The notes under the pieces are model-generated. The model ran no database searches. It was not told the DNA's origin and saw nothing but the letters and a program-made list of their open reading frames with translations. The position numbers were made by a program, and so were the translations under genes. Shown piece after piece: positions 36,985 to 59,414 of a DNA stretch of 64,000 nt; position 1 is the first letter of the stretch; every line of letters starts with the position of its first letter. The stretch spans positions 1,647 to 65,646 of the forward strand of contig CAYOFE010000001.1 of NCBI GenBank assembly GCA_964403135.1, in the 5' to 3' direction. The DNA is from an uncultured Chromatiaceae bacterium (GTDB taxonomy: Bacteria > Pseudomonadota > Gammaproteobacteria > Steroidobacterales > GCA-2729495).

Positions 36985-37015
36985 GGCCGGGCCTTTCGGG
37001 GTCCGGCCTTTTTTT
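36985..37015 (+). terminator. Rho-independent terminator
   Basis: 9-bp GC-rich stem (36985-36993 / 37000-37008, one G-T pair) followed by a run of seven T (37009-37015). Confidence 0.7.
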
Positions 37016-38039: not shown

Positions 38040-38077
38040 GTGGGCTCCCCCTCAGGCGGCACCACGCCGCCAATCAA

Positions 38078-39292: not shown

Positions 39293-39331
39293 GATCCGGC
39301 AAGCGGGCGGCAGCGGGAAGACCCGCCGGGC

Positions 39332-39715
39332 TTACGGCTGGTTCGCGTGGCAGTACTCGGCAACCTCCGCCATGGCCTCGTGGCAGTACGCCGAGGTCAG
39401 GCTCACTACGCCGGTGCAACCCTGGATCAGCCAGGCCTCGATACCCATGACGTCGTTGGTGCCCTGCGGCGGCACGCCCTTGCAGACGGCGGCGTTCGCC
39501 GGGCGGCTCTCGAGGCAGGAACGGATCGCCTGGCGGGCGTTGGCCACCCCGGCGCTTTTGGGGTGGAACCTCATGACCTCCGCCACACACGTGGACGGGC
39601 CCATCGCCGGCGGCCTGTTCGAAGGGGCCTCCGCGGCCGCTGCGGCGGACAGGGCCGCAGCGAACGCGGCAAATGCCAGCAGTCGGAAAAAAGTAAACGG
39701 GTTCGGCTGGGTCAT
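39332..39715 (-). CDS. Small secreted Cys-containing protein, unknown function
   Basis: Start moved to ATG 39715 (MTQPNPFTFFRLLAFAAFAAALSAAAAA). 6 Cys. First gene of a three-gene same-strand run. Confidence 0.4.
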   Translation of the reverse strand: MTQPNPFTFFRLLAFAAFAAALSAAAAAEAPSNRPPAMGPSTCVAEVMRFHPKSAGVANARQAIRSCLESRPANAAVCKGVPPQGTNDVMGIEAWLIQGCTGVVSLTSAYCHEAMAEVAEYCHANQP

Positions 39716-39761
39716 GAGGTGCTCCTGGCAGCTGATGCGGGTTATTTCGACAACGCAGCGG

Positions 39762-40724
39762 CTACCGATTCGCGTCAGGGCGCCGCTGCGCCCTGCGCAG
39801 GTAACCCGGCGCCACATCGGCGAGATCCGCAGCAGAAATTCCCAGCCAGCCAAGGCCTGGATGCTGCCCGGTAGCAACGCTTGGCACCTTCATGGAGTCG
39901 AGGTTGTCGCGCGACATGAGTGTCTCGCCCGGCAGCAGTTCCATCGCCAGGGCCTGCAGCCGGGCCAGGGGGCCTGGAAGTCCGAGCACGGGCCGCGGAT
40001 GTCCCGACCACTGGCCAGCAAGCCTCACGATCTCTTTCAGCGTGTACTCCCGTGGGCCGGCACATTCGATGGTGAGGCCGATGGTGTCGGGGCGGTCGAG
40101 ACACGCGACGATCGCCCCGGCCACGTCCTCCACCCACACCGGCTGGTAGCGTGAGTCGGCCCCCGCCAGCGGTATCACCGGGAACACCGCCAGCAGCCGG
40201 GCAAAAAGGTTCAGAAACCGGTCGGGGGCGCCGAAGATTACCGACGGGCGGAGCACGGTCAGGTCAAGGCCAGCTTCCCTGAGCATCTGCTCGCCCCGAC
40301 CCTTGGAACGCAGGTATTCGCTGGGGCCGTCGGCGGCCGCGCCGAGCGCACTCACATGCACGAGCCTGCGCACGCCGGCCGTCCGGCACGCCCGTGCGAG
40401 CCGGCGCGGCAGATCGGCGTGCACGCGCCCGAATTCGGCTGCCGAGCCATGCAGAATCGCGATCAGGTTGACGACCGCGTCACGACCCGCGACCAGGCGG
40501 GCGAGCACCGCGTCGTCGTGCACATCGGCCGCGATGACTTGGACGCCATTGACTGGCGTGGCCACGGCTGGCCCCAGCCCACGGCTTGGCACGGTGACCG
40601 CGCACGCCGGACGCGCCGCGAGCATGGTGCACAGGCTTCTCCCGAGGAACCCGCTGCCGCCAAGGACGAGAACGTCGCGCACCGCCGGCCGCACAGTCGT
40701 CCGGCGCTCAGGCGGGGCGGGCAC
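39762..40724 (-). CDS. NAD(P)H-binding atypical SDR (NDUFA9 / NmrA-like)
   Basis: VLVLGGSGFLGRSL Rossmann motif, 320 aa. Overlaps the preceding gene by 17 nt. Confidence 0.75.
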   Translation of the reverse strand: MPAPPERRTTVRPAVRDVLVLGGSGFLGRSLCTMLAARPACAVTVPSRGLGPAVATPVNGVQVIAADVHDDAVLARLVAGRDAVVNLIAILHGSAAEFGRVHADLPRRLARACRTAGVRRLVHVSALGAAADGPSEYLRSKGRGEQMLREAGLDLTVLRPSVIFGAPDRFLNLFARLLAVFPVIPLAGADSRYQPVWVEDVAGAIVACLDRPDTIGLTIECAGPREYTLKEIVRLAGQWSGHPRPVLGLPGPLARLQALAMELLPGETLMSRDNLDSMKVPSVATGQHPGLGWLGISAADLADVAPGYLRRAQRRPDANR

Positions 40725-41478
40725 GTACCGGATTCGTCGCGGGAGGTTGCAGCAGCGAGACGAGCGTCACCACCACCGCTACCGCGCAGCCTGCCGCGGC
40801 GGCGAACCGTACCGCAGCGCTGGTCGGCAGCGTCTGCAGGACGATGCCGAGCGAGGCCCAGGCGAATACCGCGGTGAAAACGGCATCGCGAGTCTGCACC
40901 CCGGCAGCCGAATAGATGCCGGTCGCGGTGACCACGGTGAGCAGCGCCCACTCCTCCATGGCCAACCCGAACGGGTAAACGCCGAGGTCATAGAACCACG
41001 CCGCAAGGTTCGCGAGCGTGGCGGTGGTAATCCAGCCGAGGTACAGGCTGAACGGCATATCCACGCACCATCGCTCGCGGCGTGATGACGGCGCTGCATG
41101 GCCCAGGCGCACGTAGACCAGCAGAAGGCTCAGCAGCAGAGCAACCATGAGCACGAAGCTCGCCGCGATCAGCTCGTAGTGCCACATGAATATCCATGCG
41201 GCATTAGCCACGCAGCTGACGAGGTACGGAGCCTCGATGGCGCGCAGCCTCGCGTTGACCGACTCCGACGCCCGGGCCGCGTAGACGCCAAATGCAATCA
41301 GCCCGATATAAATGAGGCTCCAGATGGAAAATACCCACCCGGCGGGCGTGAACCCCGTCGGGTAGTTGGCGCTCATTTCGCCGGTGTTGATGCCATTGAT
41401 CGGGACGATATTTGCCGCAGCATTGACGCCAATCACCAGGACTGTCGCAAGCAACGGCAGATATCGCCTCATCACCAT
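40708..41478 (-). CDS. TspO/MBR-related tryptophan-rich membrane protein (long form)
   Basis: Polytopic. FTPAGWVFSIWSLIYIGL and W-rich helices resemble proteins annotated as tryptophan-rich sensory protein. Assignment from memory only. Confidence 0.5.
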   Translation of the reverse strand: MVMRRYLPLLATVLVIGVNAAANIVPINGINTGEMSANYPTGFTPAGWVFSIWSLIYIGLIAFGVYAARASESVNARLRAIEAPYLVSCVANAAWIFMWHYELIAASFVLMVALLLSLLLVYVRLGHAAPSSRRERWCVDMPFSLYLGWITTATLANLAAWFYDLGVYPFGLAMEEWALLTVVTATGIYSAAGVQTRDAVFTAVFAWASLGIVLQTLPTSAAVRFAAAAGCAVAVVVTLVSLLQPPATNPVRARPA

Positions 41479-42849
41479 TTACCCCGCGAAGTCGTCGAGC
41501 AGGATCAGGCCTGCGGACGCGCCCCCGCCGGCGGCATCACGCGCCACTGCAGTATAGACCCCGCCAGCCTGCACGGTAACCGTCACGTCGAGCGCGACCT
41601 GGCTGGAATCGCCGGCCGGCGTCAGCACCACGCGATAATCACCAGCCCCAAGCGGGACGTAGCCGGTGTCCGCCTGGAACGGCACGGCTGCGAACGCGGC
41701 GGTGTCGTCAGTGATGTCCGTATCGGCCTCGTCGACGACATAGATGTCCACCTCGCCGGCGGCTGGCGAGGCATGCACGAGCCGCACCTTCGCCTCGGTC
41801 GCTACGCGACGGTTGTCGTCGGCGAGAATCAGCTGCGAGATGTCGGCCAGCAAGCCGGTTGCCAGCACCGTATACGCCTTGCCCGCGGCGAGCGTGGCGT
41901 CGAAGTCCAGCACCACCGTGTTCGTGCCAGCTGCCGCGACCTTGAAGTTATAGGCATCCGCGGGCACCGCCAGGTAGGCGTCGGCGCCGGGGGCGACATC
42001 CGGGTAGGCCAAGCCGGAAACAGGCGGGCTGCCGAAGTCATCGTTCACGATCACGTCCACCGGGGGCGCATCCGGCGAGGCATGCACGACACGAACGTCC
42101 GCGGGGGTGCTGACATCGAGAATCTCTGCGCTGCCGGCGCCATCCAGAGCCACGAGCGAGATCGGCGCATCGCCGGTGCCGGTGTTCTCCACCGCAACGA
42201 TCAGCAGATCGGCTCCTGCGTCGAGCGGCAGGGCGCCGGAGTCGAAAACCACCGAAGCCGCGTCGCCCGCCAGCGTGACCCTGATCTGGTAGTCACCGGC
42301 CGGCACTTCAACCGGTCCCAGTTCTTCCTTGAAACTGAAGCTGCCGAGCGGTGTCTCCGCGCCGAGATCGGCTCCGGGCGCGGTGACGTAGACGTCCACC
42401 GCGGGCGCGCCGGGCGCGGCGTGCACGACCTGCGCGCGAATATTGCCGGCACCCAAAGGCTCCTGCGGGTTGGCGATGACCAGCGGCTCCTGTGTCGCGT
42501 CACCGACTTTGCCCACGGCGATCACGCTGTAATCGGTATCGCCATCGAGGTTCGTGTCGGGAAGATCGATCACGGTCGCATTTCCGCCCGGGATGATCCC
42601 TTCCACCGCGATGTCGTAGCTGCCTTCATCGAGATCGCGGAAAGCTGACCCGGTCTTGTAATCAACGCCCTCCAGCACCGCGTCGCCATCCACGATGACG
42701 TTGACCTTCGGCGCATCGGGAGATGCGTGCAGCACGCGCAGTGCGAGTTGCGCCGGCTGGAACGTCACGTCATCATCATCGTCGTCGCAGCCAGCGGCGA
42801 GAACCACCGCCATAAGAACCGGTGCAATGGCGAGAATTCTTTTCATCAT
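41479..42849 (-). CDS. DUF4397 repeat lipoprotein
   Basis: Lipobox LAAGC then a poly-Asp tract. Four repeats begin LRVLHASPDAPKVNV, AQVVHAAPGAPAVDV, VRVVHASPDAPPVDV and VRLVHASPAAGEVDI. Confidence 0.75.
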   Translation of the reverse strand: MMKRILAIAPVLMAVVLAAGCDDDDDDVTFQPAQLALRVLHASPDAPKVNVIVDGDAVLEGVDYKTGSAFRDLDEGSYDIAVEGIIPGGNATVIDLPDTNLDGDTDYSVIAVGKVGDATQEPLVIANPQEPLGAGNIRAQVVHAAPGAPAVDVYVTAPGADLGAETPLGSFSFKEELGPVEVPAGDYQIRVTLAGDAASVVFDSGALPLDAGADLLIVAVENTGTGDAPISLVALDGAGSAEILDVSTPADVRVVHASPDAPPVDVIVNDDFGSPPVSGLAYPDVAPGADAYLAVPADAYNFKVAAAGTNTVVLDFDATLAAGKAYTVLATGLLADISQLILADDNRRVATEAKVRLVHASPAAGEVDIYVVDEADTDITDDTAAFAAVPFQADTGYVPLGAGDYRVVLTPAGDSSQVALDVTVTVQAGGVYTAVARDAAGGGASAGLILLDDFAG

Positions 42850-42936
42850 GTCGGACTCTCCCGGGACACAATGTCCCTGCGTTTGAGCCCATTCGTCGCG
42901 CCGATCGGCGCAGATTCAGTGGTGCGGGGTCTCTGC

Positions 42937-43509
42937 ATGAGCAGGCGTGTTGCAATCTTGATGCTCGTCTCGTGGTTCGCAGTTGGCGCCTGCACCTCCA
43001 CCGGCCAGCCACCATTGCGCGGCATGGAGCAGCCGGTGGACCTGCCAAGGTTCATGGGCAAGTGGTACGTGATCGGCTACATCCCGATACACCTGCCGCC
43101 GCTGTTTTCGGAAAAAGATGCCTACAACGGCGTCGAGTCATACCGGCTGGACCCCGACGCAATGATCGCGACGACCTACACCTTTCGCCGCGGCTCGTTC
43201 GACGGCCCTGAAAAGAAATTCACGCCGCGGGCGCGCGTCGCCAACCCGCCGCTCAACAGCGAGTGGAAAATGAAGTTCTTCTGGTACCTGCCTGCCGGGG
43301 ACTGCCTGATCCTGCACGTGGACGGCGACTACCGCAGGACGATCATCGGCGTCCCGGACCGCAGCTACGTGTGGATCATGGCGCGAGAACCAGTCCTGGA
43401 AGATGCGGAGTACGCCGATCTGTGGGCGCTCGCTGCGCAGATGGGCTACGACGCCACGAAGATCGAGCGCGTGCCGCAGCAGCCGGCCTTCGATCGCACC
43501 GCACGCTGA
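42937..43509 (+). CDS. Bacterial lipocalin (Blc-like) lipoprotein
   Basis: Start moved to ATG 42937. Lipobox-like VGAC and the lipocalin motif [12 protein letters not shown]. Confidence 0.8.
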
Positions 43510-43657
43510 AGCCGACCACGACCTGCCCCAGAACCAGCGCGACACCGCTATAAATGGATTGCGGTTGAATCCATCGGTGCTACCCGTGGCGAATAGCAGC
43601 CCAGCAGGCGCAATGCTTGGCCTGTTCAAGGCAATCAACCACCCAGGGAGTCTTACT

Positions 43658-44179
43658 ATGAATTCGATCGCGAGGAATTTTGGAACCCGACGCAGCATGC
43701 TGGTAGCGAGCCTGCTGGTGTTCGGCGCCATCGGCCTGTCGCTGTCACCGTCGGCAAAGGCCGGCGGGAAGGACATCGTGGACACCGCCGTCGCTGCCGG
43801 CTCTTTCAACACGCTGGCTGCGGCGCTGAAGGCTGCCGGCCTGGTCGACGCGCTCAAGGACACCGGTCCGTTCACCGTGTTTGCGCCGACGGACGCAGCG
43901 TTCGCCAAGCTGCCGGCCGGCACGCTCGATGACCTGCTGAAACCCGCCAACAAGGAAAAGCTCAAGGGCATCCTGCTCTACCACGTGGTTTCCGGGAAAA
44001 TCATGGCCGCTGACATCAAGGGCGAGGCCAAGCCCAAGACCCTGCAGGGCGCTACTCTCGACGTGAAGGCAGCCGCTGGTGGCGTGACGGTTAACGGCGC
44101 CAAGGTCACCTCGGCCGACGTTGGGGCCAGCAACGGCGTGATTCACGTGATCGATGCGGTGGTCCTGCCGCCTGCCTGA
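43658..44179 (+). CDS. Fasciclin (FAS1) domain protein, secreted
   Basis: Start moved to ATG 43658 (RBS AGGGAG). Motifs [14 protein letters not shown] and [13 protein letters not shown]. Confidence 0.9.
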
Positions 44180-44224
44180 TCCGGGTTTCCTCAGGCCAAC
44201 CGCCCAGGCAAAGACAGGGCCCCG

Positions 44225-44257
44225 GGGCGGGCACGGCACCCCCTGCCGTGTCCGCCC
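44225..44257 (+). terminator. GC-rich hairpin after the fasciclin gene (no U-tract)
   Basis: 14-bp stem (one G-T pair) with CCCCC loop. Lack of a T-run makes intrinsic termination uncertain. Confidence 0.35.
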
Positions 44258-44285
44258 GCTTCAATAGGCGCTGCGTTCGTCGTGT

Positions 44286-44942
44286 ATGATGCTGGAAGTA
44301 ATAGCAAAATGGCCGGTCAGCACGAGTCCCCTCCACGACCGGGGTCTCGCTCCGGATCGGCCGCAAGCCGCAGTGAGCCAGCAACCGACCATCCTCGAGC
44401 GCATCGCCGCAGGCGACAGCGCCGCAGTACAGGAATGCATCAATACCTACGGCGACCTGATCTGGTCGCTGGCGCGTCGCCTGTTGCGCAACCATGCCGA
44501 TGCCGAAGACGCCGTGCAGGACATTTTCATCGACCTGTGGAACAGCGCATCGCGCTTCGACCCCAATGTGGCGAGCGAGGTGGCATTTGTCTCGACGATC
44601 GCGCGAAGGCGCCTGATTGACCGACTGCGCCAGCAGGGCCGTCGCCCCGGTATGGATTCGCTCGACGACGACGAGGCCGGCGACGCACGCCAGCCCTTCA
44701 TCCTGGCGCAGAACGAGGAACAGTCCGACGTAGCGGTGGTAGCGCGGGTGCTGGCCGAGATGGACCCGCAGCACAGCCGTATCCTCTCGCTGTCGCTCTA
44801 TGAGGGCTACAGCCACAGCGAGATAGCCGAACAGCTCGGCATTCCGCTCGGCACCGTAAAGACACGCGTGCGCCGCGGCCTGATACACATCCGCGAACAA
44901 CTCGGCATTGCAGCTCCGGACACCGAGGAGGCGGCCGGGTGA
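44286..44942 (+). CDS. ECF-type RNA polymerase sigma factor
   Basis: Region 2 (DAEDAVQDIFIDLW) and region 4 (YSHSEIAEQLGIPLGTVKTRVRRG). The true start may lie downstream of 44286. Confidence 0.9.
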   Translation: MMLEVIAKWPVSTSPLHDRGLAPDRPQAAVSQQPTILERIAAGDSAAVQECINTYGDLIWSLARRLLRNHADAEDAVQDIFIDLWNSASRFDPNVASEVAFVSTIARRRLIDRLRQQGRRPGMDSLDDDEAGDARQPFILAQNEEQSDVAVVARVLAEMDPQHSRILSLSLYEGYSHSEIAEQLGIPLGTVKTRVRRGLIHIREQLGIAAPDTEEAAG

Positions 44943-45772
44943 TGGCGCAACCCGTACGCAATCGGGCTAAGGTTCTGGACCTGCTCGCCGGCGAGGCCGC
45001 GGGCGATCTCAGCCTGGAGGAGTCGCTGGAACTCGCAGCGCTGCGCCGCCCGGATCCCCTGGCGGGTTCCGAGCAGCTGATGACCGCTGCCGGTCTGGCG
45101 CAGTTGTCCTTCCTCAAGGCCGATCGGCGCGGTGTCGAGCGTATGCCCGAAAATCTCCAGGCGCGCCTGCTGCACAGCGCCAAGGCATGGTCCGCGTCTC
45201 GTGCCGGCAATAGCCAGGTCACCGACATCGCGGTAGCGCGGCGCGAGCGTCACGTTGCTGCCACGCCCTCGGCGCCGCAACGCCAGCCGGTGGCGATGGC
45301 CGGCTGGGCAGTCGCTGCAGCGCTCGCCGTGGCGTTCGTTGTTTTCCGCGCGAGCGACCCTGGCGCTCCCGGTCGGATCAGTGCCGAGCAACAGCGCGCG
45401 CACCTGATGAGTTCGGCCACCGACCTGTTGCATGCCCCCTGGTCGCCGCCCAGCGCGCCCGGCTACGAGGGTGTCCGCGGCGATGTGCTCTGGAGCAGCG
45501 CGCGGCAGGAGGGGTACCTCCGGCTGGCCGGCTTGCCGGAAAACGACCCGGCGCGCAACCAGTATCAGCTCTGGATCGTCGACCCGGAGCGCGATGCGAA
45601 TCCCGTGGATGGCGGCGTGTTCGATGTGCCGTCCTCAGGGGAGGTCACCATTCCCATACAGGCCAAGCTCGCGATCGGCCGGCCCCGTGCCTTCGCGATC
45701 ACTCTCGAACAGCCTGGTGGAGTGGTCGTTTCGAAAGGGCCGTTGCTGGTGGTCGCTGCAGTCGGCAGCTGA
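44942..45772 (+). CDS. Anti-sigma factor with RskA-type C-terminal domain
   Basis: ATG overlaps the sigma stop (TGATG). Central TM segment (MAGWAVAAALAVAFVVF). C-terminal YQLWIVDPE...AFAITLEQPGG resembles anti-sigma-K RskA. Confidence 0.75.
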   Translation: MAQPVRNRAKVLDLLAGEAAGDLSLEESLELAALRRPDPLAGSEQLMTAAGLAQLSFLKADRRGVERMPENLQARLLHSAKAWSASRAGNSQVTDIAVARRERHVAATPSAPQRQPVAMAGWAVAAALAVAFVVFRASDPGAPGRISAEQQRAHLMSSATDLLHAPWSPPSAPGYEGVRGDVLWSSARQEGYLRLAGLPENDPARNQYQLWIVDPERDANPVDGGVFDVPSSGEVTIPIQAKLAIGRPRAFAITLEQPGGVVVSKGPLLVVAAVGS

Positions 45773-45796
45773 GCGGCAGCGCGCCCGCACCGACGG

Positions 45797-46474
45797 GTGG
45801 CCGACATTCGCGGAGCATACAGCCAGATGTTGCCGGACCAGCGCATTGCACAAATACTGGCCGCCGCCGCCGAGTACCGCATTGCTGACTACGAACGCTG
45901 CCTGGCCGAGGCGGCGTCGCAGATGAACCCGGAGGAACTGGTCGAGCAGCTGTTCGCACCATTGCTCCGGGAGGCTGGCGACCGCTGGCACAGCGGCGAA
46001 CTCTCGATCGTGCAGGAGCACATGCTGTCGAGCGCGGTACGGCGCCAGTTGTACTATGTACTGGACCGCCATGCGCGCGCGTCAGCCGGTCCGGCCATTG
46101 CTTTTACCACGCTCAGCGGCGAGCGTCACGAAATGGGCAGCCTGATGCTGGCGGTTGTCAGCGCCAGCCGGGGCTTTCGCGCGATATACCTCGGCGCCGA
46201 CCTGCCCGTTGACGAGGTCGGACGCTTCTGCACGCAGGTTGACGTCGCCGCGGTAGCGATCAGCCTGGTGACCAGCCCGGTGGTCATCGACGCCTACGCC
46301 CAGTTGCAAACGCTGCGCCGGCTCACCAATCCACGGGTGCAGATCTGGATCGGTGGCCAGGCGGCGCGGCTGCTCGATGCCGCGCAACTGCCGGCGGGAA
46401 CCGTGACGATCATGGACATGCAGCAATTTGACGCGCAGCTGGCCGTGCTGCGCGAGAGGACAATCGCCAAATGA
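45797..46474 (+). CDS. Stand-alone CarH-type cobalamin-binding module (no DNA-binding domain)
   Basis: W-x9-EH (W64...E74 H75; TGG at 45986-45988) and ExHxxG (E109-R-H111-E-M-G114). Only 24 nt separate it from the anti-sigma stop, so there is no room for a MerR HTH. GTG start. Confidence 0.8.
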   Translation: MADIRGAYSQMLPDQRIAQILAAAAEYRIADYERCLAEAASQMNPEELVEQLFAPLLREAGDRWHSGELSIVQEHMLSSAVRRQLYYVLDRHARASAGPAIAFTTLSGERHEMGSLMLAVVSASRGFRAIYLGADLPVDEVGRFCTQVDVAAVAISLVTSPVVIDAYAQLQTLRRLTNPRVQIWIGGQAARLLDAAQLPAGTVTIMDMQQFDAQLAVLRERTIAK

Positions 46475-47595
46475 CACCACGCAACCGCCGGCGGCTGCTC
46501 GCCTCAGGTATCGCGCTGACATTGATCGTTGCCGTCGTGTTCTGGAGAACCCGCCCCGAACAGGCCGCGGTAGTGACCCCGGTGCAACGCGATGTGGTGG
46601 AGGTCGTGGTGGCCAGCGGCAAGATCCGCGCCGTACGCCAGAGCGTGGTCGGCGCCGAGTCAGCGGGCATCGTCGAAAGCGTGGAGGTCGCCGAGGGTGA
46701 CTCGGTGAAGGCCGGGCAGTTGCTCGGGCGACTGCGGCTCGGCGAAACGGATGCGCGGCTCGCCCAGACGCTCGCCTCACTGCGGGCGGCGGAAACCACG
46801 CTGCGCGGCGAGGAATCGCTTCTCGAGGCATCGCAACGCGAGCTCAATCGCGCACGCGAGCTCGCCGCGCGCAGGCTCGTGCCGGCGGCCGAGCTGGAGG
46901 ACGCCGAATCGGCCGAGCGGCTGCAGCGGACCAAAACCGACGCAGCACGCGCGCGGCTCGAGGAAGCGCAGGCCGAGGTCGCCAAGGTGCGACCCGAGTT
47001 CGGCAAGCGCGAGGTGCGCGCACCGTTCGACGGAGTCGTGATCGAGCGGCTGGTGCAGCCCGGCACCGGCGTGACGAGCTCCACGGGATGGTTCTCGATC
47101 GCCGAAATGAGCGCTACCGAAATCTACGTCGAAACCGACGAGAACAACCTCGGGCGCCTGAAAGTGGGCCAGCCCGCCATCGCGGTCGCTCCCGCCTACC
47201 CCGACAAGCCCTTCGACGCGCGCCTGACCCAGGTCGGGCCCAACGTCGACAGCGAGCGCGGCGTGGTCGGCCTGCGCCTGCGCGCCGACAACCTGCCGCC
47301 ATTCATATTGCCCAACATGACGATCGACGTGAACATCGAGGTGAAGCGCACCGACAAGGCCATAGCAGTGCCCGCGAGCGCCGTATCGCTGCAGGGGCCG
47401 CCCCATGTGCTGGCGATTGGCGATGGCGGCCGCCTCGAAATGCGCCGCGTGGAGATCCTGGGGCGCAACCCCGAGTGGGTCGCGGTGCGGGGTCTCGATG
47501 GGAACACGCGGGTGCTGCGCGAGGTGCGCGGCGGCGCTGCCGGCGATCGCATCCGGCCGATCGAGGCCGAGGTAGCGGGGCCGCCACGCCGATGA
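46471..47595 (+). CDS. HlyD/MacA-type periplasmic adaptor (membrane fusion protein)
   Basis: ATG overlaps the preceding stop (ATGA). N-terminal TM segment, coiled-coil hairpin and barrel-sandwich pattern. Confidence 0.85.
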   Translation: MTPRNRRRLLASGIALTLIVAVVFWRTRPEQAAVVTPVQRDVVEVVVASGKIRAVRQSVVGAESAGIVESVEVAEGDSVKAGQLLGRLRLGETDARLAQTLASLRAAETTLRGEESLLEASQRELNRARELAARRLVPAAELEDAESAERLQRTKTDAARARLEEAQAEVAKVRPEFGKREVRAPFDGVVIERLVQPGTGVTSSTGWFSIAEMSATEIYVETDENNLGRLKVGQPAIAVAPAYPDKPFDARLTQVGPNVDSERGVVGLRLRADNLPPFILPNMTIDVNIEVKRTDKAIAVPASAVSLQGPPHVLAIGDGGRLEMRRVEILGRNPEWVAVRGLDGNTRVLREVRGGAAGDRIRPIEAEVAGPPRR

Positions 47596-48842
47596 AACTC
47601 AGCTACTTCACGCTGACGGTGGCGCTGCGGCACCTGCGCTATGGCGTCGGCCAGTCGCTGCTGACCATCGGCGTGGTCGCAATCAGCGTGCTGCTGATCG
47701 TCTACCTGCGCACCGTCATCGGCGGCACGCAGGTGCGCATCGTCAACAACGTCACCGGGGCGATTCCCCACATCGTGCTCGAGCCTCCCGAGCGCACACC
47801 GATGGCGGCCTGGCGGCTGCCGCCGCGGGAGCGCGACACGATCTATGTCGGCGAGTCCGTGAAGCTGCCCCGCGCCATGGACAAGATCGACGACTGGCCG
47901 CAGTGGCTGCAAGCCCTCGATCGGGATCGGCAGTTCACGGTGGTTTCGCCGGTTGCCAGCGGCAACGTCTTCATGTTCCGCTCGGCGCGACGCCAGTCGG
48001 TGCGCATCACCGGCGTGATGCCGGAGCGCCATGATGCAATCGTCAACATCGAGGCCAACCTCGTCGAAGGGCGCTTTCTGCAACTGATTTCCGGCGAAGT
48101 CGCGCTTGGCCGCAAGCTCGCCGACCAGCTTGGCATCAGGCTGCGCGACAAGCTGCGGCTGGTCGGGCCCGGTGGCCAGGCGCTGTCGGTCACTGTCGGC
48201 GGCATCTACAACACCGGTTTTGGCGCGCTCGACGACGGACAGCTGTTCATGAACCTGCGCGATGCGCAATCGCTGCTCGAGCTCGGCAGCTCCATCAGCA
48301 ACATCTCGCTGCGCGTACGGGAGCTTTTCGCGGCAGACAGGATCGCGCAGGGACTCGCGGTGCGCATGCCGTTCAAGGTGCGCTCCTGGATCAGCGACAA
48401 CCCGAGCATCTTCGGCACGCTCGACGCGCAGAACCAGACCATCGACCTGGTCCTGATCTCCACCATCTTTGCGGCAGGCTTCGGCATCGCCAGCATCCTG
48501 ATCATGTCCGTGACGGGCAAGTACCGGGAGATCGGCATCCTCAAGGCAATGGGCGCGACACCGCCCGAGATCCAGACCATCTTCGTCGTGGAGGGCTTCC
48601 TGCTGGCGGTGCTTGGCTGCTTCGTCGGCATTCCGGCCGGCATAGCGCTGTTGCAGGCGCTGTCGCAGATCCGCGCGCCGGGGCCCGGCGGCAGGATCCA
48701 GTCGGTGTTCCTCATCGAGATCGATCCGGTACTGCTCGCCGGCGCGGCCGCAGTGGCCATCACGGTTGGGGTCACCGCCGCGTTCTTTCCCGCGCGCCGC
48801 GCAGCCAGTATCGACCCGATGGAAGTCATCCGGGGTGCCTGA
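47592..48842 (+). CDS. ABC transporter permease, FtsX/MacB/LolC-like
   Basis: Start moved to ATG 47592 (overlaps the adaptor stop). Large periplasmic loop and C-terminal FtsX TM bundle. Confidence 0.85.
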   Translation: MKLSYFTLTVALRHLRYGVGQSLLTIGVVAISVLLIVYLRTVIGGTQVRIVNNVTGAIPHIVLEPPERTPMAAWRLPPRERDTIYVGESVKLPRAMDKIDDWPQWLQALDRDRQFTVVSPVASGNVFMFRSARRQSVRITGVMPERHDAIVNIEANLVEGRFLQLISGEVALGRKLADQLGIRLRDKLRLVGPGGQALSVTVGGIYNTGFGALDDGQLFMNLRDAQSLLELGSSISNISLRVRELFAADRIAQGLAVRMPFKVRSWISDNPSIFGTLDAQNQTIDLVLISTIFAAGFGIASILIMSVTGKYREIGILKAMGATPPEIQTIFVVEGFLLAVLGCFVGIPAGIALLQALSQIRAPGPGGRIQSVFLIEIDPVLLAGAAAVAITVGVTAAFFPARRAASIDPMEVIRGA

Positions 48843-49609
48843 TGGCAAGCACGCCGGTCATAGAGCTGCGTGACGTCGGCAAAACCTACCAGACCGGCGA
48901 AATCCAGACCCCGGTGCTCTTCGACGTGTCGTTCACGGTGTACCGCAGCGAGTTCGTCGCCATCGTCGGTGGCAGCGGCTCGGGCAAGACCACGCTGCTG
49001 AACCTCATGGGCCTGCTCGACCGGCCGAGTACCGGCCAGATCCTGATCGAGGGCCGTCCGGCAAGCGACCTCGACGAGCCGGGCCGCGCGCAGATGCGCC
49101 GTGAGCGACTGGGGTTCATCTTCCAGTTCCATTACCTGCTGCCGGAATTCAACGTCCTGGAGAACGCCCTGATGCCGTGCCGCATGAAAGGGGCGGATTT
49201 CGAGGCCCGGCAGGAAACGCGCATGCGGCAGTTGCTCGAGACCGTGGGCCTCGGCGACAAGCTCAGGAACCGGCCCAGCCAGCTCTCCGGAGGCCAGCAG
49301 CAAAGGGTCGCGGTGGTGCGCTCCCTCGCCAACAATCCGGCGCTGGTGCTGGCCGACGAGCCGACCGGCAACCTCGACAGCCGCAGCGGCCGGGTGGTGT
49401 TCGACCTGATGCGATCGCTCAGCCGCGAGTCGGGCACGACCTTCATCATGGTCACCCACGATGATGACTTTGCCCTGGAGGCCGACCGGGTTATCCGCAT
49501 CAAGGACGGCCGGATCCAGCACCTGGCGGCGGCCGAGCGGCCCGCCGGCGCCGGGCCGTCGCAGACCGCGAATCCAATCCCGCCTGCGCCGACGAATTAC
49601 CTCACGTAA
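48842..49609 (+). CDS. ABC transporter ATP-binding protein (MacB/LolD-like)
   Basis: Walker [10 protein letters not shown], signature LSGGQQQR, Walker [12 protein letters not shown] overlaps the permease stop. Confidence 0.95.
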
Positions 49610-49664
49610 CGGGGGCCATTGGGGCTCCCCGCCCGAACATCCCATTGAGGGAGGGAGAGCCACC

Positions 49665-50414
49665 ATGAGCCCACCGCCAGTACACGCCCTTGCCGCGTCC
49701 ACGCCCGTCGAAGTCGGCTCGCTGTTCCGCCTGCCCGTGCCCGGGCCTGAAGCCGGGCTGCGGCCAGAAGCCATCGCGGTACGCAATGCCCTGATCCGCC
49801 GCGGGCTGGAAACGCCGATGGTCGGGAACCCCCTGAGCGCCGAGGAAAAACGCCAGCGCATCCAGGCGCATTTCACCGAGATCATGAAAGTGCTCGGCCT
49901 CGATCTCAGCGACGACAGCCTCATGGACACGCCGCGGCGCATCGCCAAGATGTACGTCAACGAGATCTTCGGCGGGCTCGACTACCGCAACTTCCCGAAG
50001 CTGACCGTGGTCGAGAACAAGATGCAGGTCGACGAGATGGTTCGAGTCGCCAACATTAACCTGTCCTCCACCTGCGAACACCACTTCATCACGATCGACG
50101 GCACCGCGACCGTCGCCTACATTCCCGGCGGCAAGGTAATCGGGCTTTCAAAGATCAACCGCATCGTGGCTTTTTTCGCACAGCGGCCGCAGATCCAGGA
50201 ACGTCTCACCGAGCAGGTCCTGCTTGCTTTGCAGACTCTGCTCGAGACTGACGACGTCGCCGTCAGCATCAACGCCATGCACTTCTGCGTGAAAGCCCGC
50301 GGCGTGATGGACGCCAGCAGCCGCACCACCACCACCGCGCTCGGCGGCGCCTTCAAGACGAACGCCGAGACGCGCAAGGAGTTCCTTGCCGGCGTGGCAG
50401 GCGCGGCCCAGTAG
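49665..50414 (+). CDS. folE: GTP cyclohydrolase I
   Basis: Start moved to ATG 49665 (RBS GAGGGAGGGAG). Motifs SSTCEHHF and RPQIQERLT. Confidence 0.95.
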
Positions 50415-50427
50415 CGGGCCGCGCCGG

Positions 50428-50700
50428 TTACTCGGCGGTGGTCGGATCGATGATCTCGCGCACCTGCGAAATGCGATTGGCGGGAAAGCCGCCTTGTCTC
50501 GCATGCTCGCGCACCGCAGCCTCGTCCGGCGCGATGTAGATACAGTACACCTTGTCGTCGGTGACGTAGCTCTGCAGCCACTGGATCTGCGGGCCAAGCT
50601 TGCGCAGCACGCCGCAGGACTTCTGCGAAATGCCCTGCAGTTCCTCAGCCGTGAGCTTGCCGGCGCCGGGAATGTCCCGCTCGATAACGAACCTGGGCAT
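50428..50700 (-). CDS. DUF4242-like small protein
   Basis: Start moved to ATG 50700 (MPRFVIERDIPGAG...). About 90 aa, matching the family pattern as I recall it. Confidence 0.55.
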   Translation of the reverse strand: MPRFVIERDIPGAGKLTAEELQGISQKSCGVLRKLGPQIQWLQSYVTDDKVYCIYIAPDEAAVREHARQGGFPANRISQVREIIDPTTAE

Positions 50701-50936
50701 GGTCTGATCCTTCCCCGTCCAGAGGGTTGGCCTGCCGACAGTGGCCGGGCGATTGTACTCGACCAGCGACGGCAACGGCCTGGCCTGCTCCAGCCAGCCT
50801 GCGCTGGTGCTCAACGCGATGCCGGGAACGGCTTCACGTTGCGGTGGGCAGCCGCCGCCCCGCATGCAGAATCCGTGAACACACGGCGCGCGAACTTGCC
50901 CGTATTGGATCTCAATTTCGGCAGGGGAAGCGCCAC

Positions 50937-52373
50937 GTGACCTCGCTGCTGTGGTTCAGGCAGGACCTGCGGCTCGCCGACAACCCGGCGCTGCGCGCGG
51001 CTGTGGACAGCGACGGGCCCGTGATCCCGGTCTACATTCACTGCCCGGAGGAAGACGGCCGCTGGCCACCCGGAGCCGCATCGCGCTGGTGGCTGCACCA
51101 CTCCCTGCAGTCGCTCGATTCTGAACTGCGCCGCCGCGGCTCTCGGCTGCTGCTTGCCCGTGGGCAAGCGCTAACGGCATTGCGGCGGTTGATTGTCGGA
51201 ACCGGCGCCCGCACCGTCTTCTGGAACCGCCGCTATGAACCCGCGGCGGCGCAACGGGACGAATTCGTGCGCCGGGCGCTCGAGGCCGATGGCATCGCGG
51301 TCCGCACGTTCAATGCGTCGTTGCTCATGGAGCCCGCTGCGATCAGCACGCGCGAGGGCCGCCCGTTCCAGGTATTCACGGCGTTCTGGCGGCGCGCAAG
51401 CAACGCATTGGAGCCGCCCGTCCCGCAGCCAGCGCGGCGCAGGATCGAGCCGCCGGGGACCTGGCCCGAATCTCTGCCTCTCGCGTCATTGGGGCTCTTC
51501 CCGCACAAGCCCTGGCATCACGGGCTTGCGTGCGGATGGCGGCCCGGCGAAGCGGCGGCGCATGCGCGGCTTGATCTGTTTACGGGCGATCTGCTCGCCG
51601 CATATGCCAGGGACAGAAATCGCCCCGACCACGACGGCACCTCGCGGCTTTCGCCGCATCTGCATTTCGGCGAGATCTCGCCACGCCAGGTGCTGGCGGC
51701 CGTGCTGTCAGCAGGCGCGGCGGCAGGACTCGCGCCCGGCGAGGCGCTCAAGTCGCCTTTCTTGACGGAACTCGGCTGGCGCGAGTTCGGCTATCACCTC
51801 CTGCACCACTACCCGAGCAGCAGCGACGAGCCGTTGCGTGAACGGTTCCGGCGATTTCCCTGGCGGGATGACGCCGCGGCGCTGGAGGCCTGGCAGCGCG
51901 GCCGCACCGGCGTGCCGATCGTCGATGCCGGCATGCGCCAGCTCTGGCAGACCGGATGGATGCACAACCGCGTGCGCATGATCGCGGCATCGTACCTGGT
52001 GAAGAACCTGCGCGTGCCGTGGCAGCATGGCGCGCGCTGGTTCTGGGACACGCTGGTCGATGCGGACCTCGCCAGCAACACGCTTGGCTGGCAATGGGTT
52101 ACAGGCTGCGGCGCCGATGCCGCCCCGTACTTCAGGATCTTCAACCCGGTGATCCAGGCGCGCAGGTTCGACCCCGACGGGAGCTACGTAAGACGATTCG
52201 TCCCCGAGCTCGCAGGCCTCTCCACCACACGGATCCACGCGCCCTGGGAGGCGTCTGCGGCCGAGCTGGCAGCGGCCGGCATCCGCCTCGGCGAGGACTA
52301 CCCGGCGCCGATCGTCGATCTGCGCGCCTCGCGCGAGGCGGCGCTCGCCGCGTTCAGGTCACTGCGCCGCTAG
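50937..52373 (+). CDS. phrB: Deoxyribodipyrimidine photolyase (class I CPD type)
   Basis: GTG 50937 gives TSLLWFRQDLRLADNPAL. FAD-binding TGVPIVDAGMRQLWQTGWMHNRVRMIAASYLVK present. Confidence 0.95.
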   Translation: MTSLLWFRQDLRLADNPALRAAVDSDGPVIPVYIHCPEEDGRWPPGAASRWWLHHSLQSLDSELRRRGSRLLLARGQALTALRRLIVGTGARTVFWNRRYEPAAAQRDEFVRRALEADGIAVRTFNASLLMEPAAISTREGRPFQVFTAFWRRASNALEPPVPQPARRRIEPPGTWPESLPLASLGLFPHKPWHHGLACGWRPGEAAAHARLDLFTGDLLAAYARDRNRPDHDGTSRLSPHLHFGEISPRQVLAAVLSAGAAAGLAPGEALKSPFLTELGWREFGYHLLHHYPSSSDEPLRERFRRFPWRDDAAALEAWQRGRTGVPIVDAGMRQLWQTGWMHNRVRMIAASYLVKNLRVPWQHGARWFWDTLVDADLASNTLGWQWVTGCGADAAPYFRIFNPVIQARRFDPDGSYVRRFVPELAGLSTTRIHAPWEASAAELAAAGIRLGEDYPAPIVDLRASREAALAAFRSLRR

Positions 52374-55882: not shown

Positions 55883-58111
<2,229 letters not shown>

Positions 58112-58134
58112 CTACCTAGAAGGCTGACCAGGGG

Positions 58135-58461
58135 CTAATCGCTGACCTCGATCAGTCCCTTCATTTCCGGGTGCGGCCCGCAGCTGTACGGATAGCTGCC
58201 GGGCTGGTCGAACGTGCGTTCCCAGGATTCGCCGGGGAAGAACCGCTCGGACTCAAACCCACCCGCGCCAAGGAACAGGATCGAGTGGCTGACACGCTTC
58301 TCGTTGTTAGTCCACTTCACGGTGGTGCCCACCTTGATCTTGAGCTCCGCCGGCTCGTACTTGTACTCCGCAATGCTGACCTCAACCGTGTCGGCGCAGA
58401 CCGGCGCTGCCAGCCAGGCCAGCAGCGCCGGTACCGCGATCCATTGCAGCCGAGGGCCCAT
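58135..58461 (-). CDS. Cupredoxin (type 1 blue copper protein, amicyanin-like ligand loop)
   Basis: Start moved to ATG 58461. Signal peptide, VSHS His ligand and YSCGPHPEM loop. Confidence 0.8.
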   Translation of the reverse strand: MGPRLQWIAVPALLAWLAAPVCADTVEVSIAEYKYEPAELKIKVGTTVKWTNNEKRVSHSILFLGAGGFESERFFPGESWERTFDQPGSYPYSCGPHPEMKGLIEVSD

Positions 58462-58475
58462 GGCTTCAGGCCGGC

Positions 58476-59345: not shown

Positions 59346-59414
59346 GATCGGATCCTCGATCTCTCCAGGTTTGGGCTGAACCGCGGCGCAATTATAGCCG
59401 CGGCCCGGCGCTCG

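What the first reader, a model, noticed from the sequence alone, without database searches (positions are those of the whole stretch)
44286..50414. Candidate new system: ECF sigma / anti-sigma / B12 sensor fused transcriptionally to a MacAB-like exporter and folE
Six genes are chained by overlapping or near-abutting start/stop codons. The order is sigma, TGATG, anti-sigma, a 24-nt gap, B12 module, ATGA, adaptor, ATGA, permease, TGATG, ATPase. folE follows after 55 nt. I know of no described ECF system in which a cobalamin/light-sensor module is the third component. MacAB-type pumps have been reported to export protoporphyrin in E. coli. Together with the TspO-like gene and photolyase nearby, this suggests a light- or B12-gated response to tetrapyrrole phototoxicity. 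This is a hypothesis built on motifs and gene order only.
Basis: inference. Interest (0 to 1): 0.8.

Follow-up and report, generated by a model that had tools for sequence, protein, structure and literature searches.

The report
B12 light sensor joined to efflux pump
A gene for a vitamin-B12 light-sensor module with no DNA-binding part always travels with a three-gene efflux pump; here that cassette sits directly behind a known sigma/anti-sigma pair, inside a block of light-protection genes that share one promoter motif.

Summary
All seven genes, their overlaps and their gaps are as described.

The six-gene chain is two conserved modules joined end to end.
- Module 1 is the known fasciclin(mpt83)-sigK-rskA cassette.
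- Module 2 is a four-gene cassette I did not find described: a CarH-type B12-binding module without a DNA-binding domain, then a membrane-fusion protein, a MacB/FtsX permease and an ABC ATPase.

Conservation:
- The B12 gene is followed by the pump in all 29 genome loci that extend past it.
- Sigma/anti-sigma lie directly upstream only in the window's close relatives.

A promoter-like motif, GAATC(C)-N16-18-CGAA, occurs five times in the 64-kb window. All five sites lie upstream of cluster genes: fasciclin, DUF4397-TspO, an unknown operon, folE and photolyase. The same motif precedes the B12-pump cassette in most other genomes, and precedes fasciclin-sigK nearly everywhere.

A link between SigK and B12 photoreceptors does recur, but through a different protein. 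Photocobilin-like B12 proteins adjoin this sigma in six loci, and two of those are true sigma/anti-sigma/B12 triads.

Most likely reading: this is a SigK-driven photoprotection regulon, and the B12 module is a light-sensing partner specific to the pump. The last step is inferred.

The parts
37014..39715 (-). Three-gene unit on the minus strand: unknown 127-aa protein (39332-39715), beta-lactamase-fold protein (38078-39271), alpha/beta hydrolase (37014-38039).
   Evidence: Pfam. Gene calls from L001. The promoter motif lies just upstream.
39746..39771 (-). SigK-type promoter motif, GAATCGGTAGCCGCTGCGTTGTCGAA, about 30 nt upstream of the 127-aa gene.
39762..42849 (-). DUF4397 lipoprotein (41479-42849), TspO-like membrane protein (40708-41478) and NAD-dependent epimerase-like protein (39762-40694).
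   Evidence: Pfam. The TspO-like gene recurs near the cassette in L024 and L090.
42892..42917 (-). SigK-type promoter motif upstream of the DUF4397 gene.
42961..43509 (+). Lipocalin (Blc-like) lipoprotein. No promoter motif was found upstream.
   Evidence: Pfam. Motif scan with one mismatch allowed.
43567..43593 (+). SigK-type promoter motif, GAATCCATCGGTGCTACCCGTGGCGAA, upstream of the fasciclin gene.
   Evidence: The same position is occupied in L085, L087, L171, L172, L093, L098-L101 and L107.
43697..44179 (+). Secreted fasciclin-domain protein (Mpt83/Mpt70-like).
   Evidence: Pfam 5.8e-40. [quoted passage not shown]
44225..44257 (+). A 14-bp G+C-rich hairpin between the fasciclin and sigma genes. 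It may be a terminator or attenuator. The conserved box TCGTGTATGATG follows at 44280-44291.
   Evidence: Fold. Conserved in L085 and L087.
44373..44942 (+). SigK-like ECF sigma factor. The alternative start is 44286.
44942..45772 (+). Single-pass membrane anti-sigma factor with a periplasmic RskA_C domain.
   Evidence: Pfam 2.8e-15.
45827..46474 (+). CarH-type cobalamin-binding photoreceptor module (four-helix bundle plus Rossmann-like domain) with no DNA-binding domain. The alternative start is 45797.
   Evidence: AlphaFold2 model with pLDDT 96.6. The top 50 PDB fold matches are all TtCarH/LitR.
46471..47595 (+). Membrane-fusion (periplasmic adaptor) protein of the exporter.
47592..48842 (+). 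MacB/LolC/DevC-type permease (MacB_PCD and FtsX domains).
48842..49609 (+). ABC ATPase with intact Walker A, signature, Walker B and H-loop motifs.
49570..49596 (+). SigK-type promoter motif for folE, lying inside the 3' end of the ATPase gene.
   Evidence: Conserved at the same place in L005, L085 and L087.
49665..50414 (+). GTP cyclohydrolase I (FolE).
50428..50865 (-). SCO4226-like small protein.
   Evidence: Precomputed Pfam annotation in L001.
50869..50894 (+). SigK-type promoter motif upstream of the photolyase gene.
50937..52373 (+). Deoxyribodipyrimidine photolyase.
   Evidence: Pfam.

Best explanation
The region from about 37.0 to 52.4 kb is a photoprotection gene island driven by a SigK-type ECF sigma factor. 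The finding itself is two conserved modules joined end to end.

Module 1 is the known fasciclin(mpt83)-sigK-rskA cassette.

Module 2 is a four-gene cassette: a CarH-type adenosylcobalamin-binding module that has lost its DNA-binding domain, followed with overlapping stop and start codons by a tripartite-type ABC exporter (adaptor, MacB-like permease, ATPase).

Shown by the data:
- The promoter-like motif GAATC(C)-N16-18-CGAA precedes fasciclin, DUF4397-TspO-epimerase, an unknown operon, folE and photolyase in the window.
- The same motif precedes the B12-pump cassette in most other genomes.
- The same motif precedes fasciclin-sigK (or sigK itself) across many relatives.
- In the window's clade the cassette has no motif of its own and directly follows rskA.

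Inferred:
- The motif is the promoter recognised by this sigma, so the B12-pump cassette is an output of the regulon.
- In the window's clade the cassette is co-transcribed with sigK-rskA.
- The regulon answers light or photo-oxidative stress.
- The DNA-binding-less B12 protein binds AdoCbl and changes oligomeric state in light, as CarH does. It passes that change by protein-protein contact to the pump it is always encoded with, so that export happens in the light.
- The exported substrate is plausibly a phototoxic tetrapyrrole taken from the periplasm or membrane.
For: Module structure:
- All 29 genome loci with a stand-alone B12 gene and downstream sequence carry adaptor-permease-ATPase next. 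So do L085, L087, L089, L090 and L175.
- None of the 50 full-length MerR-B12 loci has the pump.
- The pump orthologue group at 58% identity or more keeps the B12 gene (L175). The nearest outgroup pump, at 47% identity, lacks it (L174).

Promoter motif:
- Five exact hits occur in 64 kb against 1.4 expected, and 0 of 100 shuffles reached five. All five lie in the cluster, correctly oriented upstream of genes.
- 19 of 28 stand-alone B12 loci have the exact motif within 220 nt upstream. The background is 0.003 per such stretch, giving a binomial tail of 1e-41 that is not corrected for relatedness.
- Four more of those loci, plus L089, carry a GAAACC variant.
- In L024 and L090 the motif lies upstream of a SOUL gene that leads the cassette.
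- None of the 50 MerR-B12 loci has the motif.
- The motif precedes fasciclin-sigma or sigma in 13 sigma loci.

Photoreceptor nature of the B12 protein:
- W-x9-EH and ExHxxG are invariant in 48 family members.
- The published light-response signature GxxW/EH/GxxH/GxxxP (PMC11796333) is complete.
- The family profile hits TtCarH at 1e-25, against 4e-11 for corrinoid proteins.
- The model has pLDDT 96.6, and its top 50 PDB fold matches are all CarH/LitR, with target-normalised TM-scores up to 0.84.
- dN/dS is 0.18-0.27.

Light context:
- A photolyase gene lies in the neighbourhood in 17 of the 29 loci clustered.
- folE and phrB are light-induced in Pseudomonas (PMC9758184).
- The fasciclin genes mpk70/83 and the phrB-tspO genes are light-induced in M. 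kansasii (PMC9861118).
- Photocobilin-like B12 proteins adjoin this sigma in L005, L093, L096, L098, L108 and L171.
- Full-length LitR is divergently paired with fasciclin genes in at least 21 loci.
- Stand-alone B12 photoreceptors are known to act through protein contacts (PMC10979010).

Tetrapyrrole hint:
- A SOUL protein with a signal peptide is the first gene of the cassette in L024 and L090.
- TspO-like genes lie nearby in three loci.
Against: - No expression, binding or transport data exist. The light response, AdoCbl binding and pump control are all inferred.
- I found no gene fusion between the B12 module and a pump component among the best 150 representatives.
- There is no cassette-specific insertion in the ATPase that could serve as a docking site.
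- MacB-type pumps act on periplasmic substrates while the B12 protein is cytoplasmic, so any control must go through the ATPase or a cytoplasmic tail.
- In the window there is no motif directly upstream of sigma or of the B12 gene. A strong hairpin follows the fasciclin gene. Whether the cassette is SigK-dependent in this genome is therefore uncertain.
- I could not retrieve the published SigK site, so I did not compare the motif with it.
- Four cassette loci lack a recognisable motif.
Confidence: 0.55

Rival explanations
1. The B12 module is the third component of the ECF system. It is a cytoplasmic light or B12 input that acts on SigK or on the cytoplasmic domain of RskA, like an anti-anti-sigma or a second anti-sigma. 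The pump is only an output.
For: - The B12 gene sits directly after rskA in four contigs.
- This is the position held by a photocobilin-like B12 gene in L171 and L108.
- Photocobilin genes directly precede the sigma, with no RskA, in L005, L096 and L098. B12 photoreceptors therefore plausibly feed this sigma.
- Negative regulators are commonly members of their own regulon, and the B12 gene is the first gene behind the SigK-type motif elsewhere.
- The signal for SigK-RskA is unknown (PMC7509140).
Against: - This B12 family is never found beside sigma/anti-sigma without the pump. It is found with the pump and no adjacent sigma in 29 genomes.
- L171 has both a photocobilin in the triad position and a separate B12-pump cassette about 5 kb away. 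That suggests two different jobs.
- The syntenic locus L172 has sigK-rskA and no B12 gene.
- The sensing domain of RskA is periplasmic.
Confidence: 0.2
2. The B12 module is a transcriptional co-regulator. Like AerR with CrtJ, or by forming mixed oligomers with a full-length LitR/CarH encoded elsewhere, it tunes a DNA-binding partner. It is encoded with the pump only because both are light-induced.
For: - Its closest relatives are full-length MerR-B12 repressors of the same bacterial groups, at 40-47% identity.
- CarH modules oligomerise through this very domain.
- There is precedent for regulators that are only a B12-binding domain, namely AerR (PMC9144470, listed).
Against: - No full-length LitR/CarH is present in the 64-kb window or next to the cassette in most loci.
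- The strict, translationally coupled link to one pump lineage would be unexplained.
- The cassette promoters look ECF-type, and no conserved operator lies beside them.
Confidence: 0.12
3. The B12 protein is not a photoreceptor. It is a corrinoid carrier, storage or methyl-transfer protein (JGI names it 'MtbC1'), or the gene order reflects co-regulation with no functional link.
For: - JGI annotates it as a methanogenic corrinoid protein.
- There are weak NCBIfam matches to MtgC and MtbC.
Against: - CarH scores far better than corrinoid proteins: 101 against 46 bits in NCBIfam, and 1e-25 against 4e-11 in the PDB profile search.
- The Wx9EH cap and the whole light signature are invariant.
- No methyltransferase partner genes lie nearby.
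- The cassette is conserved in over 30 loci with overlapping stop and start codons.
Confidence: 0.06

Closest known systems
CarH/LitR class I AdoB12 photoreceptor-repressors (Thermus thermophilus CarH, PDB 5C8D; Myxococcus CarH; Bacillus LitR)
   Same: - The light-sensing module is the same: a four-helix bundle with Wx9EH, and a Rossmann-like domain with ExHxxG.
- It is the best sequence match and the best fold match.
- Full-length relatives in the same bacterial groups are 40-47% identical.
   Different: - There is no MerR DNA-binding domain, so it cannot be a repressor on its own.
- It is encoded as the first gene of an ABC exporter operon, behind an ECF-type promoter rather than a self-repressed sigma-70 promoter.
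Stand-alone B12 photoreceptor modules that act by protein contact: AerR/PpaA (antirepressor of CrtJ/PpsR) and stand-alone photocobilins (SasPcob, PDB 8J2W)
   Same: It is a B12-binding module with no output domain, and is expected to signal through a partner protein.
   Different: - AerR did not match the family profile at E <= 0.001.
- The window protein has no photoglobin domain.
- The proposed partner is a transporter, not a transcription factor or an enzyme.
- The photocobilin-like proteins are the ones that sit beside the sigma in relatives.
mpt83-sigK-rskA cassette (Mycobacterium, Yersinia; Veyrier 2008, as cited in PMC7509140)
   Same: - The gene order is fasciclin, ECF sigma, then an anti-sigma with an RskA_C domain.
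- A sigma-type site lies upstream of the fasciclin gene.
- The activating signal is unknown there too.
   Different: - This sigma has one cysteine, so it lacks the redox cysteine pair of M. tuberculosis SigK.
- NCBIfam SigK subfamily cut-offs are not reached.
- Here the inferred regulon holds photolyase, folE, TspO and a B12-pump cassette.
LitR-LitS of Streptomyces (B12 photoreceptor plus ECF sigma)
   Same: A B12 photoreceptor and an ECF sigma cooperate in light-induced transcription (PMC11519972).
   Different: - LitR is a DNA-binding repressor of litS, and LitS has no anti-sigma.
- Here the B12 protein has no DNA-binding domain, and the sigma has a membrane anti-sigma.
MacAB-TolC / DevBCA / LolCDE (type VII ABC systems)
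   Same: - It has an adaptor, a four-helix permease with a large periplasmic domain, and an ATPase.
- The gene order adaptor-permease-ATPase is that of DevBCA.
- From my own knowledge, not checked here: MacAB is reported to export protoporphyrin in E. coli.
   Different: - The ATPase and permease are separate genes, unlike E. coli MacB.
- It scores below every NCBIfam equivalog cut-off.
- No outer-membrane partner gene lies nearby.
- It is unique in carrying a B12 photoreceptor gene.
RpoE-ChrR singlet-oxygen regulon (Rhodobacter) and the LitR/PplR light regulon of Pseudomonas
   Same: The output genes overlap: photolyase, folE, and CFA/furan fatty-acid synthase with amine oxidase and DUF1365 (the last three seen in L005).
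   Different: The regulators differ: SigK/RskA instead of RpoE/ChrR or a MerR-type repressor.

Membership tests
CarH/LitR class I photoreceptor-repressor | N-terminal MerR-type helix-turn-helix DNA-binding domain | tested here: not met
   Pfam and NCBIfam find only B12-binding_2 and B12-binding. The match to the CarH model covers profile positions 80-264 only. Family members are 215-222 aa. A MerR query finds nothing nearby.
CarH/LitR class I photoreceptor-repressor | Four-helix bundle with the W-x9-E-H cap over the adenosyl group | tested here: met
   W54, E64 and H65 are invariant in 48 sequences and align with the TtCarH WHRGEIGVAEEH stretch.
CarH/LitR class I photoreceptor-repressor | Rossmann-like domain with the E/DxHxxG lower-axial histidine motif | tested here: met
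   GERHEMG is present. G98, R100, H101 and G104 are invariant.
Light-responsive cobalamin-binding domains (SignatureFinder signature GxxW, EH, GxxH, GxxxP) | All four signature elements present | tested here: met
   GDRW, EH, GERH and GADLP are in the window protein. The signature comes from PMC11796333. The key residues are invariant or nearly so in A1.
CarH/LitR class I photoreceptor-repressor | AdoCbl binding and a light-driven change of oligomeric state | not testable with these tools
   This needs purified protein, spectroscopy and size-exclusion chromatography.
mpt83-sigK-rskA cassette | ECF sigma followed by an anti-sigma with an RskA_C domain | tested here: met
   Sigma70_r2 and Sigma70_r4_2 are present. 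RskA_C scores 57 bits against a cut-off of 29.
mpt83-sigK-rskA cassette | Fasciclin (mpt83-like) gene directly upstream, carrying the sigma's promoter site | tested here: met
   The fasciclin gene is at 43697-44179 with the motif at 43567-43593. The same layout occurs in at least 10 relatives. I could not compare the motif with the published SigK site because that paper is not held.
mpt83-sigK-rskA cassette | Sigma belongs to the SigK subfamily by a curated model | tested here: not met
   NF007228 (SigK) scores 124 bits against a cut-off of 226. Only the ECF superfamily model passes. I therefore call it SigK-like.
mpt83-sigK-rskA cassette | Redox-sensitive cysteine pair in the sigma (C133/C183 of M. 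tuberculosis) | tested here: not met
   The protein has a single cysteine, C22. Cysteine-less SigK proteins are known in Nocardia.
MacAB-type (type VII) tripartite ABC exporter | Periplasmic adaptor, permease with MacB periplasmic core and FtsX domains, and an ABC ATPase | tested here: met
   HlyD_D23, MacB_PCD plus FtsX, and ABC_tran are all present.
MacAB-type (type VII) tripartite ABC exporter | Orthology to MacA/MacB (curated equivalogs; fused ATPase-permease) | tested here: not met
   MacA scores 84 bits against a cut-off of 342. MacB scores 224 and 47 bits against 966. The two halves are separate genes.
MacAB-type (type VII) tripartite ABC exporter | Outer-membrane channel partner (TolC-like) | not tested
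   None was seen among the annotated neighbours. The rest of the genome is not available.
Photocobilin | Photoglobin (biliverdin-binding) domain joined to the B12-binding domain | tested here: not met
   The window protein is only the B12-binding module. The sigma-adjacent proteins of relatives do match SasPcob in both domains (E 2e-31 overall; globin stretch 0.0018).
LitR-LitS | DNA-binding B12 repressor controlling transcription of an ECF sigma that has no anti-sigma | tested here: not met
   There is no DNA-binding domain, and an anti-sigma is present.

The most novel reading that the evidence does not exclude
Two linked claims remain open.

(1) The DNA-binding-less CarH module is a light-gated regulatory subunit of a MacB-type ABC exporter. 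That would be the first efflux pump placed under direct control of a photoreceptor.

(2) The widespread SigK-RskA system, whose signal has been unknown since its discovery in mycobacteria, is a light or photo-oxidative-stress system. B12 photoreceptors (photocobilins, and perhaps this module) would be its inputs or partners.
Probability: 0.3. Interest if true: 0.85.

Novelty: new variant of a known kind. Interest (0 to 1): 0.62.

Why it matters
If the B12 module controls the pump, it would be a new output class for B12 photoreceptors: a transporter rather than DNA or an enzyme. It would also be a compact, natural, green-light switch for efflux, of use in optogenetics.

The promoter motif and the repeated pairing of B12 photoreceptors with SigK-like sigma factors give a concrete, testable answer to an open question, namely what signal activates SigK-RskA. 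SigK-RskA is the system behind MPT70/MPB83 expression in the tuberculosis complex.

The analysis also defines a photoprotection regulon in uncultured Gammaproteobacteria: fasciclin, TspO, folE, photolyase, DUF4397 and a pump.

Tried and rejected
- **Conserved three-gene ECF unit.** Rejected. tblastn of 80 genome loci found sigma/anti-sigma upstream only in close relatives.
- **Truncated or decaying LitR.** Rejected. The family has about 90 clusters at 90% identity, invariant cofactor motifs and dN/dS of 0.18-0.27.
- **Corrinoid methyl-transfer protein (JGI name).** Rejected.
- **Second B12 or LitR gene, or a photocobilin, in the window.** None found.
- **Cobalamin riboswitch or any Rfam RNA in the window.** None found.
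- **Sigma-70 promoters or intrinsic terminators inside the chain.** None above chance.
- **SigK-type motif upstream of sigma or of the B12 gene in the window clade.** None, even with two mismatches allowed.
- **Conserved operator beside the cassette promoters.** Only the two promoter boxes are invariant.
- **Fusion of the B12 module to a pump component.** None among the best 150 representatives. The 492-aa hit is an over-extended MerR-B12 call, and the 1202-aa hit is a MerR-B12 protein with an unrelated C-terminal extension.
- **Cassette-specific insertion in the ATPase.** None. The adaptor alignment was viewed in summary only and was not checked for insertions.
- **Published SigK promoter consensus and the supplement of the ECF classification paper.** Not held, so no comparison was made.
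- **Literature search for CarH together with MacB.** No paper found.

Full report
**What is in the window**

The window is a 67% G+C metagenomic contig. The same sequence occurs in JGI sample 3300037465. Its nearest genome relatives are uncultured Gammaproteobacteria labelled Chromatiales, Chromatiaceae or Steroidobacteraceae.

- an ECF sigma;
- an anti-sigma with an RskA_C domain;
- a periplasmic adaptor;
- a permease with MacB_PCD and FtsX domains;
- an ABC ATPase;
- folE.

I read the junctions base by base. They are TGATG, a 24-nt gap, ATGA, ATGA, TGATG and a 55-nt gap.

Two start codons are ambiguous:
- Homologues of the B12 protein are 215-222 aa. This favours ATG 45827 over GTG 45797.
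- The first 29 codons of the sigma ORF from 44286 are not conserved.

The neighbours on the plus strand are a lipocalin and a fasciclin protein upstream, and a photolyase downstream. Divergently transcribed upstream are a DUF4397 lipoprotein, a TspO-like protein, an epimerase, an unknown 127-aa protein, a beta-lactamase-fold protein and a hydrolase.

**The B12 protein is a CarH-type light-sensing module without a DNA-binding domain**

- Its best curated match is CarH, over profile positions 80-264 only. That is everything except the MerR domain.
- A profile of 48 family members hits Thermus CarH/LitR structures at 1e-25. Corrinoid proteins score 4e-11 and photocobilin 1e-10.
- The AlphaFold2 model is confident (pLDDT 96.6). 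Its 50 best PDB fold matches are all CarH/LitR.
- The W-x9-EH cap and the ExHxxG histidine loop are invariant in the family.
- The published four-part light-response signature GxxW/EH/GxxH/GxxxP (PMC11796333) is complete.
- The gene is under purifying selection, with dN/dS of 0.18-0.27.
- The next relatives, at 40-47% identity, are full-length MerR-B12 repressors of the same bacterial groups.

The family therefore looks like a LitR/CarH that lost its DNA-binding domain. JGI's name for it, 'methanogenic corrinoid protein MtbC1', is a mis-annotation.

**What is conserved is B12 plus pump, not sigma plus anti-sigma plus B12**

I scanned one genome per species with the family alignment. This returned 80 loci.
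- All 29 loci with a stand-alone B12 gene and sequence downstream have adaptor-permease-ATPase immediately after it.
- The 50 loci with a full-length MerR-B12 gene never do.
- Five further metagenome contigs show the same cassette.

The flanks differ between lineages:
- lipB and LptD;
- a restriction system;
- a SOUL gene;
- in a large clade, polyamine genes followed by photolyase, an ABM-like gene and a trypsin-like gene.

The pump orthologue group runs from 100% down to 58% identity and still carries the B12 gene at 58% (L175). The next pump, at 47%, lacks it (L174).

Sigma and anti-sigma lie directly upstream only in L085, L086 and L087, which are syntenic with the window. A further syntenic relative, L172, has M48-NYN-PQQ-fasciclin-sigma-RskA and then unrelated genes. 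It has no B12 gene, pump, folE or photolyase there.

So the six-gene chain is a lineage-specific joining of two modules.

**Module 1 is already known**

Fasciclin, sigma and an RskA-type anti-sigma form the mpt83-sigK-rskA cassette. It has been described from mycobacteria to Yersinia, with a SigK site upstream of mpt83. Its activating signal is still unknown (PMC7509140).

The window's sigma is SigK-like only. It misses the curated SigK cut-off, and it has one cysteine rather than the redox pair.

**A shared promoter motif ties the cluster together**

I first noticed GAATC...CGAA by eye upstream of the fasciclin, DUF4397 and photolyase genes.
- The pattern GAATC-N16-18-CGAA has five exact matches in the 64-kb window, against 1.4 expected. 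None of 100 shuffles reached five.
- All five lie between 39.7 and 50.9 kb.
- All five are on the coding strand upstream of a gene: the 127-aa gene, DUF4397, fasciclin, folE (inside the end of the ATPase gene) and photolyase.

In other genomes the same motif lies about 50-180 nt upstream of the stand-alone B12 gene.
- 19 of 28 loci carry it exactly. The background is 0.003 per such stretch, giving a binomial tail of 1e-41 that is not corrected for relatedness.
- Four more of those loci, and L089, carry a GAAACC variant.
- In L024 and L090 it precedes a SOUL gene that leads the cassette.
- In an alignment of 14 upstream regions, the two boxes are the only invariant elements.
- None of the 50 MerR-B12 loci has the motif.

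The same motif also precedes fasciclin-sigma, or the sigma itself, in L171, L172, L091, L093, L098-L101, L107, L108, L122, L085 and L087.

Its shape, spacing and position, and its link to the sigma's own operon, make it the likely promoter of this sigma. This is an inference. I could not obtain the published SigK site to compare.

In the window clade there is no such motif upstream of sigma or of the B12 gene. A conserved strong hairpin (44225-44257) and a conserved TCGTGTATGATG box separate the fasciclin and sigma genes. How the chain is transcribed here remains open.

**B12 photoreceptors do recur beside this sigma, but as another protein**

Sigma orthologues at 68-100% identity are abundant. 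I collected sigma loci from metagenomes and from large contigs. A 340-380-aa protein adjoins the sigma in six of them. It has an N-terminal helical domain followed by the B12-binding domains. The arrangements are:
- L005: B12 protein then sigma, with no RskA;
- L096 and L098: B12 protein, sigma, a 90-aa ORF, then a PP2C phosphatase;
- L093: B12 gene divergent from fasciclin-sigma-RskA;
- L108: sigma-RskA-B12-folE-DUF4397-fasciclin-lipocalin;
- L171: SnoaL-CMAS-fasciclin-sigma-RskA-B12.

A profile of these six proteins matches the photocobilin SasPcob (8J2W) at 2e-31. Its globin-like domain also matches, at 0.0018. They are only 23-31% identical to the window's B12 protein.

L171 is on the same contig as L090. 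That genome has the photocobilin in the triad position and, about 5 kb away, a separate SOUL-B12-pump cassette. This argues that the two B12 proteins have different roles. The photocobilin sits near the sigma as a likely input. The CarH-type module sits with the pump.

**Why I read the regulon as light or photo-oxidative protection (inferred)**

- Photolyase and folE are light-induced members of the LitR regulon in Pseudomonas (PMC9758184).
- In M. kansasii the fasciclin genes mpk70/83 and the phrB-tspO genes are light-induced (PMC9861118).
- L005 adds amine oxidase, DUF1365, SnoaL and CFA synthase genes next to the sigma.
- Full-length LitR is divergently paired with a fasciclin gene in at least 21 loci.

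For the pump's substrate, the only hints are a signal-peptide-bearing SOUL haem-binding gene at the head of the cassette in two loci and TspO-like genes nearby.

**Mechanism and weights**

I give about 0.85 to the two-module, shared-promoter picture. I give about 0.6 to light or photo-oxidative stress as the stimulus.

I give about 0.35-0.4 to the specific idea that the B12 module passes a light-driven oligomer change to the pump through protein contact.
- Precedent: stand-alone B12 photoreceptors act through protein contacts (PMC10979010).
- Main argument: the strict and exclusive coupling, with overlapping stop and start codons, to one pump lineage.
- Against: I found no fusion protein and no docking insertion in the ATPase, and the B12 protein is cytoplasmic while MacB-type pumps work on the periplasmic side.

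Rival explanations are a light input to SigK/RskA (0.2), a co-regulator of a LitR-type partner (0.12), and a non-photoreceptor or merely co-regulated protein (0.06).

**Novelty**

All the building blocks are known: CarH-type domains, B12 modules without output domains, SigK-RskA, MacB-type pumps, and LitR-LitS as a B12-ECF pair.

I did not find the following described in the held literature:
- the obligate cassette of a B12 photoreceptor module and an ABC exporter;
- its placement behind a SigK-type promoter;
- the repeated pairing of photocobilin-like proteins with SigK-like sigma factors.

I rate this a new variant of a known kind, with moderate to high interest. The main reason is that it makes the unknown signal of SigK-RskA testable.

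Noticed in passing
window 54311-55615 (+): The peptidase M13 gene has only its N-terminal domain here (395 aa plus a 34-aa fragment in the gene calls). Relative L085 has an intact 659-aa gene with both domains. This is probably a frameshift or a pseudogene.
   Followed up: partly
window 55883-63541 (-): A denitrification-type block: two cytochrome cd1 (NirS-like) genes, a NapC/NirT cytochrome and an EB_dh-like haem protein, followed by a UbiD-like decarboxylase.
   Followed up: no
window 44225-44257 and 44280-44291: A 14-bp G+C-rich hairpin follows the fasciclin gene (the 86-nt stretch around it, 44205-44290, folds at -43 kcal/mol, z = -2.6). It is followed by the box TCGTGTATGATG. Both are conserved in L085 and L087, and the box also in L172. 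The box could be the -10 element of a sigma-70 promoter for sigK, or the context of a start codon.
   Followed up: partly
L096:686-3560 and L098:5862-8726: A different wiring of the same sigma family: photocobilin-like B12 protein, sigma, an 86-90-aa ORF with no Pfam match, then a SpoIIE/PP2C phosphatase. There is no RskA.
   Followed up: partly
L039, L042, L043, L045-L047, L050, L051, L053, L055, L058-L060, L062-L067, L073, L076 (around 9000-10600): Full-length MerR-B12 (LitR/CarH) genes are divergently paired with a fasciclin gene in at least 21 genomes. Mpt83-like fasciclin proteins therefore seem to be light-regulated by a second route.
   Followed up: no
L172:2778-9481: This locus is syntenic with the window (M48, NYN, PQQ dehydrogenase, 112-aa gene, fasciclin, sigma, RskA) but lacks the B12-pump-folE-photolyase block. 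It marks the insertion or deletion boundary right after rskA.
   Followed up: partly
L005:4940-10729: Next to the sigma lie amine oxidase, DUF1365, SnoaL_2 and cyclopropane/CFA synthase genes. From my own recollection, not checked here, this is the set found at the M. tuberculosis sigK locus and in singlet-oxygen regulons.
   Followed up: no
L024:1678-2418 and L090:7387-7977: A SOUL haem-binding protein with a signal peptide is the first gene of the B12-pump operon, and the promoter motif lies upstream of it.
   Followed up: partly
window 45797-46474: Public annotation (JGI) names this protein 'methanogenic corrinoid protein MtbC1'. The evidence points to a CarH-type photoreceptor module instead.
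   Followed up: yes
window 44942-46474: The anti-sigma and B12 ORFs are in the same reading frame, separated by one TGA and 24-54 nt. A single stop-codon change would fuse them. No such fusion was seen among relatives.
   Followed up: partly
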